A stretch of DNA of 55,378 bases from Octopus sinensis. Lineage: Eukaryota. Position 1 is the first letter of the stretch; every line of letters begins with the position of its first letter. The translations under genes and the position numbers were made by a program. Under the pieces are notes generated by a model that did no database searches, was not told the origin of the DNA, and saw nothing but the letters and a program-made list of their open reading frames with translations. Positions 273-51,719 of this stretch are shown in pieces. The DNA lies in assembly GCF_006345805.1 (NCBI RefSeq), contig NW_021833761.1, forward strand, positions 1 to 55,378, written 5' to 3'.

Positions 273-455
273 ACCGTTGCCGATTTTTTCCCTCTGTCCT
301 CCCTCTCTGGATCTTTCCTTCTCCTATGTTTTCCGACGAAGAGCTCCGCTCGAAACGTTAAAAACCCTCCTTCTTTCCTGAGCGTCCGATAATACTATAT
401 TTGTTCCCCGTCCTCGCGTTGTTGTGTTTTTTTGTGCTTTCTTGTTTGAATTACT
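273..455 (+). mobile_element. Short PLE-terminus-like cassette between (TA)n arrays, with a minimal hammerhead motif
   Basis: Flanked by (TA)n; GTTTT-CCGACGA-A-GAGC-TCC-GCTC-GAAAC-GTT-AAAAAC at 328-365; downstream TTCCTGAGCG..TAATAC shared with the 2250/51720 family. Confidence 0.7.
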
Positions 456-4040: not shown

Positions 4041-4956
4041 GCATGAGTACACATGCACGAATGTATAGGGAGAGATAGGCATGCAGACAGAATCACTTGA
4101 GAGGCACTCGTGAGAATATGCAGTACTTTGCGTCTATTTTCCAAGTTCAAAATCCGTGTGTTTGGACTTTGCCTTTTATAATAAAACAAAATAAAATACC
4201 AGTAATGTACCGGAGTCGATATATTTGGCTATACCCCACTCCAAATTAGGCCTCTGGTAGAATTCAATGCAGTTTACGATTAGCAATATCGAATTTACCT
4301 CATCAGCCATGGTACTACCTGAGAAACATGCAAGAAGTTAAGAAGGTTTTTCATTTGATCTTCCATAAATATACGTATATTCCCATATACATACTTATTT
4401 ATATATGTGCGTGTGTGTGTGTGTGTGTGTGTGTTTTAGGGAATTAGTAATAATGGTATACCCCCTCCTACGCGGCGAATGGAATAACCTAGTCACTATA
4501 AGTAAAGAGAAATGCATAAGTAGGAGTGGCTGTGTGGTAAGTAGCTTGCTAACCTCACTGACTGAAGAGTGACTTTGCTTACCTTACTACGGTTTGGACG
4601 CGTTTTTCTTCTCGGTAAGAGTTTTGCTGTGTTGTTAATATTACTTCGTACTATCTGGATTACTTGTTGAATTTTACTACTGAAAATTTGTTTTTTAACG
4701 TTGTTGAACTGTCTTGTTCCCCGGTTTTACCGGAGAATAATTGGATAATTTGTCACTGTTGAACTGTTAGGCATTGTGGCTTTTTTATCTTCGTGACTGC
4801 ATATAGTCTTGCTAGACTAAGTTTGTGCCCCTCCCTCGAATGGGGGTGGGAATTAAACTTAATTTTTGAACTGCTTTTGAACTGCTTTGGGAGAAAAACT
4901 TTTTATTGGTTTTCCAGTTTTGTGGGAAACCAATATTTGTATTTTTTGTGTTGTCT

Positions 4957-6395
4957 ATGACGAATTTCAACAAAATAATGTCTGTTGAGATTATTCACGA
5001 AAATAGTGCTCTTGAGGAGAGCAATGTTGATAGTTGTGGTAAAAAATTTTTGGCGGTGGCCGCAGTGGCAACCGAGAACATTAGCATTAATGTTAATCAG
5101 CTCGTCAAGCTATTTAAAAGAATGAAAGAGGAGGGTGGTGATATTAAAATATCACCTTCCGCCAGTATCGTGGAGACCGACAAGCGGACCGTAGTGTTTA
5201 AAACCTTCTGTCCACAAAGCAGAAGGTTCAAACACTTTGAAAAGAATATTATCGAAAAATGCCTGTCCCTGATTTGCAGGGACATTGTGTACGTCGCCAG
5301 GGGACGGGCATACGGCACTGTGGAGGTCCGCTTCTCGGGGGAAGAGGTGGCCCGCGGGCATTCCGTGAATCCCCTAAAAACTAAGGAGGTGGTACTTCTG
5401 CCGACCTATATGGGACGTAGGACGTCCCGGGTCAAGATTGCAGAAGCGCCGCCAGAAGTAGATCCTGTAGAGGTAGTGACCGCCCTGTTATATAAGAGGG
5501 CGGAGAAAATCAAAATATTACAGGTAACATGCTCTGCCCCTCAAAATTGGCTTGGGCAGAACATTAATGTAATAATCCAAGGAACACAGGAGGACCTGCA
5601 GGTCCTTCCTGAGAGGATGCTCGTGGGCGAGAATGTGGCCCTCAGGGTACAGGTCGAAGGCCGAAAACCCACCTGTTACGCCTGCGGCAAAAAGGACCAC
5701 ATTCGTGTGGACTGTCCAGACAATCAAAAGAAACCGCTGACACCAGGCCCCTCAGATAATAAAAAAAATCCCTACCCTTGCAAACTCACCTACCCCTACA
5801 AAAACAAAAAGTCCCACTCCTGCTGTTACGGTGTCAACCCCAAAACAAACTGACAAAAAAACCCAGCCCTTGCACACACAAACCCCTACATTATTAAAAC
5901 TTCCCACCCTCTTAAAAATTGCGGCGCCTACTGAACAAAATATTGCTAACCCAGACGATACCATGGAGGTATCAGAGGAGGGATTTACAACTGTTCGTAA
6001 AAGAACTCGAGCATCATCCCCGTCCACATCCCCTACAAAAAATAATAAAAATAATGACACACCAAAGACACCAAACAAAAAAATCCCGCCCAACTGGCCC
6101 AGAAAAAGAAGACGAAAAAAAAGAATTCATATTAATTGAGTATGATACACGAAACAAATATATAAATGATATTGTGGTTCCGCATCACACAGCAAGACTG
6201 TACGACAAACACAAAGATCTAGACGGAAGATGTGCGTGGATTGCGGATAAAGTGTACAAACAATTAAAAGACAGACACCCAAAGGCCATCCGGCGTATCG
6301 CGAACTTGCCGGGTTATCTGAGGAAGGAGGAGAAAGAAGGGGCCCACAAGTGTGTGGTGAGGTCGACCCCAACCTCTCCAACGAAATGTAAGTAG
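4957..6395 (+). CDS. LINE ORF1 (gag-like nucleic-acid-binding protein with CCHC zinc knuckle), two apparent frameshifts
   Basis: CYACGKKDHIRVDC = CX2CX4HX4C. ORFs 4906-5853, 5831-6139 and 5919-6395 join into one frame if one A is removed from each of the runs at 5761-5768 and 6077-6083. Pro/Thr/Lys-rich linker; GFTTVRKR is typical of Tx1/L1 ORF1. Confidence 0.8.
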
Positions 6396-6412
6396 AACTT
6401 TTACTTTTTGTA

Positions 6413-6760
6413 ATGGCTTCGCTTAACCTTGGTTGTTTAAATGTGCGTGGTCTGAGTTCGAAGTGGTAGCAGGCTTGTTTCCTCGACGACCTCAGATCAC
6501 ATGATATACATGTGATGGTTGCTACAGAGACCAAACTGAACAGCCTACAAACCTTCTCGCCTCTCCTGAATGGCTACAAGAAAATCATGTCTCCTGCCCA
6601 GACCGGAGGGCGAGGGGGTGTAGTGGTACTGATCCGTAAAGACTTGGCTCTGCAGACAAGTACAGTCTATGTGGACCCTGAAGGTGGGCTGGTCGTCCTT
6701 GATGTGACATACAGCAGTAAGGCAAGGCCTTCAGGTTGATCGGACTCTATGCACCTTGTG
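6413..6760 (+). pseudogene. LINE ORF2 N-terminus (APE endonuclease), disrupted and truncated
   Basis: MASLNLGCLNVRGL..*..VATETKL..GRGGVVVLIRK..GGLVVLDV..(frameshift)FRLIGLYAP match the L1/Tx1 EN motifs NVRGL, QET, GV and YAP; in-frame TAG near 6467. Confidence 0.88.
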
Positions 6761-6926
6761 CTAGAGGTTTCCAAACTGAATAAAGCTCTTTTTCTTTGCA
6801 GAATTCAAGCCGGTCTCTAGCAAAATGGCTAGGCTCGACAGCTCATGGAGTTCGTGGATATGCGAATTTGTTAGTGTGCATGTATATTATACACACACAC
6901 ACTCTCTCACACACACACATACACAC

Positions 6927-20004: not shown

Positions 20005-20050
20005 GGACCACTGATGAGGTCACAGGAGTGTGACGAAAGAACTCTGGCCG
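20005..20050 (+). ncRNA. Minimal type I hammerhead motif
   Basis: CCA-CTGATGA-G-GTCAC-AGGAGT-GTGAC-GAAA-GAAC-TC-TGG; perfect core, 5-bp stem II, CUC triplet. Confidence 0.72.
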
Positions 20051-27181: not shown

Positions 27182-27424
27182 ATGATTCGGTTCTTGACTG
27201 AAGATTGAAGGCTTCGAATGTCCCGTCCGTGATTTTTGTATCGTCTTCTGGGTGTTTTGCGTTCTTGTCCCGGTTTGTGTTTTTTTTTTTGCATATACAT
27301 ATATATATAGCATGATTCGGTTCTTGACTGAAGATTGAAGGCTTCGAATGTCCCGTCCGTGTTTTTTGTATCGTCTTCTAAGTGTTTTGCGTTCTTATCC
27401 CGTTTGTGTTTTTTTGCATATACA

Positions 27425-27430
<6 letters not shown>
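27182..27430 (+). repeat. Tandem 130-bp direct repeat (two diverged copies), PLE-terminal-repeat-like
   Basis: ATGATTCGGTTCTTGACTGAAGATTGAAGGCTTCGAATGTCCCGTCCGTG at 27182 and 27312; each copy ends in (TA)n. Confidence 0.9.
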
Positions 27431-27478
<48 letters not shown>

Positions 27479-37389: not shown

Positions 37390-37430
<41 letters not shown>

Positions 37431-37477
37431 TATATATATTATATAATATATATATTATATATATATATAAATATCAC

Positions 37478-37560
37478 CAGCTGACCGGTGTCTGCTACTC
37501 TAGGCCGATGAAGGACAACGATCCTGAAACACGTGTCCCTAGATGCAGTTCCGGCAGCCG
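37478..37560 (+). ncRNA. Type I hammerhead ribozyme with extended stem I, in a roughly 240-bp cassette (37473-37713) between (TA)n arrays
   Basis: TCTAGG-CCGATGA-AGGA-CAACGA-TCCT-GAAAC-ACGT-GTC-CCTAGA (37499-37543); stem I extends via CTGC/GCAG and CCGG/CCGG. Confidence 0.88.
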
Positions 37561-37713
37561 GGGGTGTTTGTCTCCCCTTCATAAATGTATATAAGGACAC
37601 AGGGAAAAATGTGTCAAAGCCATCAGGAGGCGTTCGATGCTTCCTAGGGCTATACAGTGGTGGTGTACCCCCTACTGTCACGTTCTTGTTAGATTGACAG
37701 TATACAACCATTC

Positions 37714-38272
<559 letters not shown>

Positions 38273-51114: not shown

Positions 51115-51500
51115 AAGAGAAAAAAATATATGTATATGCGTGTGTCTGTGTGTGTAATGGTCTTGAGAGCGTAGAAACTCAGAGTATTTCCATTGCAGTA
51201 CTCAATCTATACTCTGGAATTAGAGTTTCGAGGAAGATCGAAATTTCGCTGGTGAAGAACATTCAAGTACTACAGGTGCAAATCTAATGTGTGGGTCAAG
51301 TGAAGAGAAAAAAATATATGTATATGCGTGTGTCTGTGTGTGTAATGGTCTTGAGAGCGTAGAAACTCAGAGTATTTCCATTGCAGTACTCAATCTATAC
51401 TCTGGAATTAGAGTTTCGAGGAAGATCGAAATTTCGCTGGTGAAGAACATTCAAGTACTACAGGTGCAAATCTAATGTGTGGGTCAAGTGAAGAGAAAAA
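51115..51500. repeat. 188-bp tandem duplication, apparently perfect
   Basis: 51115-51302 matches 51303-51490; AAGAGAAAAA at all three junctions. Confidence 0.95.
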
Positions 51501-51719
51501 TATAATCCAATTAAGAGACAGAGAAAGATATAATTGTTTCGGTACCACCCTGTTTCTTACGACATTACACAAAAGTTCCGTGCGATAAGTTGCCTAATAT
51601 TTGTGGTTTTATATATACATGAGCATGAAACTTCATCAGGCTTGAATAAATAGCTCAGAAACAATGGCAACCAGATATTAAAATCATTCGTTGTTTATTT
51701 ATTTGGATCTTTCTCTCTC

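What the first reader, a model, noticed from the sequence alone, without database searches (positions are those of the whole stretch)
37473..37713. Best-preserved ribozyme cassette: 240-bp retrozyme-like unit with extended stem I
Seen: perfect 6-bp stem I extended through bulges by CTGC/GCAG and CCGG/CCGG, 4-bp stem II with a CAACGA loop, perfect ACACGTGT palindrome in stem III, GUC triplet (predicted cut after 37537), and a CCGAUGA (U4C) core. The unit is GC-richer than its surroundings, non-coding and bounded by (TA)n on both sides. Bulged stem I plus loop II is the architecture used for tertiary docking in fast hammerheads. This is the top candidate for an active ribozyme here.
Basis: partly seen in the sequence, partly recalled or inferred. 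Interest (0 to 1): 0.75.

Follow-up and report, generated by a model that had tools for sequence, protein, structure and literature searches.

The report
Hammerhead retrozyme fragment with altered core
This stretch is a shortened copy of a 363-base jumping repeat with hundreds of copies in this animal genome, which carries a well-formed self-cutting (hammerhead) RNA with one unusual core letter; it is likely moved by a Penelope-type retrotransposon and is predicted, untested, to cut slowly and in pairs.

Summary
The hammerhead is real: type I, all helices at the stated places, 13 of 16 pairs covary across subfamilies. The unit is not 240 bp. It is positions 1-244 of a 363-bp repeat (887 exact hits of one 17-mer), so this copy cannot give a circle alone; a circle would be about 363 nt. 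C at core position 4 is the family state (150 C, 8 T) and recurs in two unrelated hammerhead families. With a 2-bp stem III and an A-U pair closing stem II it predicts slow, dimer-dependent cutting, not a fast ribozyme. Copies show Penelope-type anatomy: (TA)n flanks, inverted arms, one short and one long end in 12 of 12 pairs. The partner enzyme was not identified. The unit's first bases are a landing site for ORF1-only, HAL1-like cassettes (empty here); the scan found that system before on other DNA (e1-8801340, e1-8669648), and I confirmed it here. One locus shows unit and cassette moved together. Cleavage and circular RNA are not shown. Verdict: new variant of the non-LTR retrozymes, moderate interest.

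The parts
37473..37716 (+). Positions 1-244 of the 363-bp retrozyme unit: a 5'-truncated copy that stops at the family's short 3' end (the last 3 bases are shared with the TA array)
   Evidence: 48 of 98 sampled copies end at 238-245
37499..37543 (+). Type I hammerhead: stem I 6 bp, core with C at position 4 (37506), stem II 4 bp closed by A-U, stem III 2 bp plus palindromic loop; predicted cut after 37537
37485..37554 (+). Extended stem I with a 3-nt bulge (37496-37498) opposite a single U (37544); likely docking partner of loop II (37516-37521)
   Evidence: pair probabilities 0.99-1.0; T37496, A37518, A37521, T37544 invariant in 12 of 12 aligned copies; the contact itself is inferred
37529..37536 (+). 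Self-complementary 8-mer that forms an 8-bp stem III between two ribozymes
   Evidence: active dimer is the cofold minimum, -52.5 against -42.8 kcal/mol for two monomers; seven different perfect palindromes occur at this place in the family and its relatives
37473..37486 (+). Unit start: landing site (duplicated on insertion) of ORF1-only cassettes at other loci; no cassette in this copy
37564..37713 (+). Rest of the unit up to the short end; several hairpins; its long-range partner (unit 335-363) is missing from this copy
37393..37472 (.). (TA)n array on the 5' side: likely insertion target
37714..38272 (.). (TA)n array on the 3' side: likely insertion target
   Evidence: TA follows the end in 51 of 83 copies that stop at a unit end

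Best explanation
The stretch is a 5'-truncated copy (positions 1-244) of a 363-bp hammerhead-bearing repeat with hundreds of dispersed copies, likely a non-LTR retrozyme copied into (TA)n arrays by a Penelope-like reverse transcriptase/endonuclease, whose ribozyme is predicted to cut slowly and as a dimer. Shown: the fold and its covariation; the 363-bp period; C4 as the family state; two fixed 3' ends, scattered 5' ends, inverted arms with one short and one long end; ORF1-only cassettes with target-site duplications at the unit start of other copies. Inferred: transcription starts at about unit position 1 behind a TATA-like stretch in unit 330-345; transcripts of two-unit loci pair their palindromes, cut at both sites and close to a 363-nt circle; the enzyme primes at 244 or 299 and runs back round the circle, which gives partial tandems; weak cutting (U4C, A-U at the base of stem II, 2-bp stem III) lets the monomer circle survive. 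This copy lacks the upstream 122 bp and a second ribozyme, so it is likely a dead end unless a read-through transcript pairs with another copy in trans.
For: Covariation: 95.8% of cells paired, 13 of 16 pairs changed on both sides, 0 of 500 shuffles as high, slid controls 24-52% (12 hand-picked copies, related, so not a probability). Period 363-366 bp in 5 same-strand pairs among the first 100 of 150 hits. Circular fold of a natural monomer -120.4 against -85.0 +- 5.8 kcal/mol, 0 of 100 shuffles. Dimer is the cofold minimum. 3' ends of 98 sampled hits: 48 at 238-245, 27 at 294-306, 8 where the aligner ran on from 299 into TA, 4 into a cassette, 11 elsewhere. Of 16 inverted insertions, 12 have both arms ending at a unit end and all 12 pair a short with a long end, as described for PLEs (PMC8557442). 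A PLE family in this genome has the same two-end, (TA)n anatomy. 52 of 98 hits run through the 363-to-1 junction and none starts at the unit start except 8 behind a cassette, which fits a circular or multimeric template. Size and layout match mussel and axolotl retrozymes (PMC7229834).
Against: No cleavage or RNA circle was observed; contigs cannot show either. 5' ends do not pile up at the cut site (5 of 98 at 61-69, about 3 expected from the 27 ends at 11-88), so the genome holds no footprint of cutting. The unit shares no sequence with the two PLE families compared, so the partner is unproven; the single PLE-unit junction (L271) has only 2 bases of overlap and may be a nested insertion. No array longer than two ribozymes was seen, whereas published retrozymes reach long arrays. 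Within the young family the core is only about twice as conserved as the rest (11 of 725 against 246 of 7835 differences), a weak signal. The transcription start is inferred only.
Confidence: 0.7

Rival explanations
1. The ribozyme of this young family is dead or nearly so: U4C and the weak pairs were fixed by drift in one master copy, and copies are made from uncut multimeric transcripts.
For: No pile-up of 5' ends at the cut site; copies run through the site freely; U4C lowers activity in vitro (PMC3088659); active monomer fold lies 2.7 kcal/mol above the minimum.
Against: Position 4 is C or T only: 0 purines in 158 exact hits of this family and 0 in the first 100 of 8385 hits of an unrelated family (71 C, 29 T); a third family has 14 C and 12 T in 30 loci, 4 without the motif. 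All other core bases are kept, and a U4C viroid stays infectious. Multi-unit loci that could supply long linear templates are rare.
Confidence: 0.2
2. The unit is the terminal repeat of one composite, protein-coding element (unit - ORF1 - unit, about 2.1 kb) that always moves as a whole; the window holds a solo 3' repeat.
For: 20 of 30 unit starts not preceded by the usual unit end follow the cassette tail; 9 of 9 bodies after the unit end are this cassette; older unit subfamilies carry older cassettes; ORF under purifying selection; at L161 two inverted arms 99.4% identical over 1245 bp include about 1 kb of cassette.
Against: Cassettes have 8-17 bp direct repeats of varying length, also in unrelated targets, and 5'-truncated copies with their own repeats. 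Within family A, unit and cassette distances do not correlate (rho -0.14, p 0.82, 14 rows): units 0.85% apart hold cassettes 12.9% apart, and cassettes about 1% apart sit in units 5-9% apart. The ORF is 31% identical to ORF1 of a full LINE with endonuclease and RT. Most copies have no cassette.
Confidence: 0.07
3. One reading: a self-contained 240-nt retrozyme with a fast monomeric ribozyme.
For: Bulge and loop II bases are invariant; coral retrozymes of 220-245 bp exist and cut fast (PMC7229834).
Against: Period is 363 bp; no 241-bp tandem junction in any sampled copy; stem III probability 0.00 in the monomer.
Confidence: 0.03

Closest known systems
Non-LTR retrozymes of animals (Cervera and de la Pena 2020, PMC7229834; seen: parts 2-3 of 6 and passages. 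Li et al. 2026, bioRxiv 10.64898/2026.07.22.740005; seen: part 1 of 5 and passages)
   Same: Non-coding repeat of 150-450 bp with a canonical type I hammerhead (6-bp helix I, 4-bp helix II, short palindromic helix III), highly self-paired circular fold, PLEs in the same genome; mussel units are 350-390 bp.
   Different: C at core position 4 in nearly all copies; dispersed partial tandems and inverted pairs instead of long arrays; unit start used as a landing site by ORF1-only cassettes; circular RNA not shown here.
Penelope-like elements and their non-autonomous forms (Craig et al. 2021, PMC8557442, passages; Cervera and de la Pena 2014, PMC4209133, parts 1-2 of 4)
   Same: Partial tandems, inverted 5'-truncated arm, an extension at one end only, (TA)n targets, hammerhead in the repeat.
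   Different: No RT or endonuclease; the extension is about 55 bp rather than 30-40; a canonical rather than minimal hammerhead; no sequence shared with the two PLE families compared.
U4C hammerhead variant of a viroid (as cited in Perreault et al. 2011, PMC3088659; seen: section 8 and passages)
   Same: Same core change.
   Different: There a rare variant; here the majority state of a repeat family, and common in two further unrelated families of the same genome.
HAL1, HeT-A, Ag-Sponge: ORF1-only non-autonomous LINEs (PMC5753468, PMC5786205, passages); Tx1-clade target-specific LINEs (PMC4494074, passages). Applies to the cassette, not to the window copy
   Same: One ORF homologous to LINE ORF1, target-site duplications, 5' truncation, tandem stacking, insertion at a fixed place in another mobile element.
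   Different: Targets the start of several unrelated ribozyme repeats; ends in a hairpin and AATAAA without a poly(A) run; at least once moved together with the retrozyme in a PLE-type inverted insertion.

Membership tests
Type I hammerhead ribozyme | Three helices round the core, helix I open | tested here: met
Type I hammerhead ribozyme | Conserved core bases | tested here: met
   All present except U4, which is C (a natural variant on record); pair 10.1-11.1 is A-U. Rfam models do not score it.
Type I hammerhead ribozyme | Self-cleavage after the NUH triplet | not testable with these tools
   No raw RNA reads offered; no genomic pile-up at the site.
Non-LTR retrozyme | Non-coding unit of 150-450 bp with a type I hammerhead | tested here: met
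   363 bp
Non-LTR retrozyme | [quoted passage not shown] | tested here: met
   5 dimers among the first 100 of 150 hits, no trimer; the window copy itself is a single partial unit
Non-LTR retrozyme | Stable, highly self-paired circular fold | tested here: met
   z = -6.1 against 100 shuffles, computed
Non-LTR retrozyme | Accumulates as circular RNA | tested here: inconclusive
   Only contigs of runs of guessed or unknown kind; one contig in run X18 closes on itself over 363 bases, which a DNA tandem also gives
Non-autonomous Penelope-like element | Partial tandems, inverted 5' arm, extension at one end only | tested here: met
   12 of 12 informative inverted pairs
Non-autonomous Penelope-like element | 3' end shared with an autonomous PLE | tested here: inconclusive
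   No similarity to the 781-aa or the 775-aa family; other PLE families among 5029 GIY-YIG candidates were not surveyed. Filed as 'works like', not as a member.
HAL1-like ORF1-only LINE (the cassette at other loci) | Single ORF homologous to LINE ORF1, no ORF2 | tested here: met
   451 aa, zinc knuckle, 28-32% identical to ORF1 of 10 of 10 fetched LINE loci; no RT between the repeats
HAL1-like ORF1-only LINE (the cassette at other loci) | Target-site duplications and 5' truncation | tested here: met
   17 single cassettes with 8-17 bp repeats, picked by eye from 88 printed tail rows; truncated copies at L159, L197
HAL1-like ORF1-only LINE (the cassette at other loci) | 3' tail shared with the mobilising LINE | tested here: inconclusive
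   Resemblance by eye, but 25 of 300 shuffles score as high; only one LINE family compared

The most novel reading that the evidence does not exclude
U4C is a selected, recurrent way of tuning hammerheads down in this animal's Penelope-dependent elements (three unrelated families, thousands of copies), and the retrozyme is a two-level vehicle: LINE-derived ORF1-only cassettes land at its start to take its promoter, and the ribozyme pair then cuts out a 2.1-kb coding circle that the Penelope enzyme re-inserts, so one RNA is moved by two unrelated retrotransposition machines.
Probability: 0.3. Interest if true: 0.68.

Novelty: new variant of a known kind. Interest (0 to 1): 0.42.

Why it matters
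How animal retrozymes move has rested on co-occurrence and phylogeny; this family shows Penelope-type junctions copy by copy, so the template (circle or multimer) and the partner can be tested directly. A core change treated as a rare defect is the majority state in thousands of genomic hammerheads here; descriptor and Rfam searches miss them, and the natural C4/U4 pairs allow a clean rate comparison. The single copy in the window is itself an ordinary truncated insertion.

Tried and rejected
Rfam: no hammerhead match. 240-bp monomer: rejected. Pile-up of 5' ends at the cut site or at the unit start: none. Autonomous partner with the same repeat: none among 30 GIY-YIG loci, 8 larger PLE loci and all listed unit junctions. 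My own first reading, a composite element with the unit as pseudo-LTR, was dropped; one search has two artefact rows (L176 unit cut at 137, L161+ arm shorter than the stretch compared) and left L163 out. RNA: no RNA holder listed as on record; contigs of four runs guessed to be RNA cover unit and parts of the ORF but show neither strand, ends nor level; not used as evidence. Word-indexed protein search found no relative of the cassette ORF, while the profile search found 333 at E 1e-10 or better, unnamed. Structure model weak (mean pLDDT 55); Foldseek no hit at E 0.001, best rows tandem RRMs; VIA best Z 5.6, ferredoxin-like folds at 74-137 and 137-219: a lead only. Bacterial promoter scan is not apt for an animal and was not used. 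dN/dS for residues 381-451 not obtained (script error). Literature: searches for hammerhead + octopus, U4C + natural, Penelope + zinc knuckle + non-autonomous + hammerhead, Penelope + octopus, Penelope + gag-like, Terminon, HAL1 and Tx1 + transcription start gave no description of this family or of widespread U4C; two relevant papers were not held, and supplements and Repbase/Dfam entries were not seen, so either may be on record there.

Full report
Observation. The stretch is 49.8% GC between two (TA)n arrays. A strict descriptor finds it once in the window and never in 200 random windows. Rfam does not report it. The window lies in a 2.72-Gb animal genome; that it is an octopus is my inference, not tested.

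The real unit. A search of the own genome gave 2161 candidates, the 40 scored being 97-100% identical over the whole stretch. Their flanks show that the repeat goes on 122 bp upstream and about 55 bp downstream, and that the period is 363 bp. One 17-mer of the unit has 887 exact hits (some belong to related subfamilies), the ribozyme 24-mer 150. I mapped 98 of the first 100 listed 17-mer hits (contigs C1 and C2) on a natural monomer. The window copy is positions 1-244: a 5'-truncated copy ending at the commoner of two fixed 3' ends. It has one ribozyme and lacks unit 245-363.

Is the ribozyme under selection? Twelve copies chosen to span the subfamilies and related units keep 95.8% of cells paired, with changes on both sides in 13 of 16 pairs; no shuffle and no slid control comes near (the rows are related and hand-picked). 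The first bulge base, the single bulged U and two loop II adenines are invariant, which fits the helix I/loop II contact (that these bases make the contact is recalled from the Schistosoma structure, not tested). Stem III has only two pairs, with probability 0.00 in the monomer, but it lies in a palindrome; seven different perfect palindromes occur at this place among the copies collected, and the commonest variant (39 of 97) has one central mismatch. The active dimer is the cofold minimum. This is the dimer design described for animal hammerheads (PMC4209133).

The U4C change. It is the family state, not damage: 150 C, 8 T, no purine; 54 of 56 in the sample not selected on this site. Older subfamilies have U. 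It recurs in an unrelated minimal hammerhead family (8385 hits; 71 C and 29 T in the first 100; one copy at window 333) and in a PLE family (14 C, 12 T, 4 without the motif, of 30). Some T copies may be CpG decay. In print I found U4C only as a viroid variant with much lower activity in vitro that still supports infection (PMC3088659). The pair closing stem II is A-U and is the least kept pair of the alignment, whereas G-C is typical. All this points to a slow ribozyme.

How it moves. 83 of 98 hits stop at one of two ends, 51 of them directly in TA repeats; 5' ends are scattered. Of 16 inverted insertions, 12 have both arms ending at a unit end, and each pairs a short with a long end; two more have an arm running into a cassette and two are broken elsewhere. 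That is the PLE signature (PMC8557442), and a PLE family of 775 aa (RT and GIY-YIG) with 804 hits of its 3' motif shows the same two ends in (TA)n. But the unit shares no sequence with it or with the 781-aa family, so the partner is inferred from anatomy alone. 52 of 98 hits run through the 363-to-1 junction, while loci with two ribozymes are few; a circular template is the simplest reading, as proposed for PLEs and shown as RNA for coral, mussel and axolotl retrozymes. A natural monomer folds as a circle 6 standard deviations better than shuffles. Against: no excess of 5' ends at the cut site, and no RNA evidence.

The cassette at the unit start. At other loci a 1.65-1.8-kb body with one ORF of about 450 aa sits at unit positions 1-14. 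It has a zinc knuckle, Atlas look-alikes with RRM and CCHC domains, dN/dS 0.06-0.33 over residues 1-240 in 35 of 37 comparisons with one reference (2 saturated), and 28-32% identity to ORF1 of a full LINE with endonuclease, RT and zinc finger, whose 5' half lies in this same window. I first read unit plus body as one element. One cassette in a foreign target carries the first bases of another host repeat at its 5' end (L191), which suggests that the landing site is a transcription start; this is inferred. What I add is L161: inverted arms 99.4% identical over 1245 bp, with the break inside the ORF and a short and a long unit end, so a composite was moved at least once by the PLE-type route.

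Verdict. The window holds an ordinary truncated copy of an apparently undescribed retrozyme family (searches listed under Tried and rejected). It is a member of the type I hammerheads by structure and of the non-LTR retrozymes by all features I could test, and it works like a non-autonomous PLE without a named partner. The fixed core variant and the junction anatomy make it a new variant; the cassette system was seen before by this scan. Interest 0.42.

Noticed in passing
window 4560-6800 (+): 5' half of an L1/Tx1-type LINE: ORF1 with zinc knuckle (30% identical to the cassette ORF) followed by a broken endonuclease start at 6413. Full copies elsewhere end at the same short sequence of another repeat in 9 of 10 fetched loci, with a duplicated target.
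   Followed up: partly
window 333-360 (+): Minimal hammerhead with C at position 4, member of a family with 8385 exact pattern hits (71 C, 29 T in the first 100).
   Followed up: partly
window 20011-20050 (+): Hammerhead-like motif with canonical CTGATGA core and a 5-bp stem II; weak stems I and III.
   Followed up: no
L271 (G000:C7:82707500-82716500, - strand): A 5'-truncated 775-aa-family PLE joined directly to unit 307-363 + 1-299, with TA arrays outside: template switch or nested insertion.
   Followed up: partly
L151-L158: Two PLE families with long open frames (781 and 775 aa); the first has a hammerhead-like motif with the U3-A8 core pair downstream of the ORF in 4 of 8 loci.
   Followed up: partly
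L155, L202, L206, L214 (B); L215, L218, L219, L261 (C); L181 (E): Further hammerhead units of the same design but different sequence, C with U3-A8; B and C also carry the ORF1 cassette at their start.
   Followed up: partly
L192, L195, L220, L224 (D): A host repeat of the cassette with about 50-bp internal tandem repeats and inverted arms, in which I saw no hammerhead (no dedicated scan).
   Followed up: no
L221, L225, L228: Arrays in which the cassette stands in front of up to five copies of a second ORF1-only type (30-40% identical) with the same hairpin-AATAAA tail.
   Followed up: partly
run X18 laid on L012:1379-1803: One 369-base contig covers the whole monomer and closes on itself over 363 bases; run kind unknown, another organism label.
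   Followed up: no
window 27182-27434 and 51115-51504: Two-copy tandem repeats of 130 bp (92% matches) and 188 bp (99% matches).
   Followed up: no
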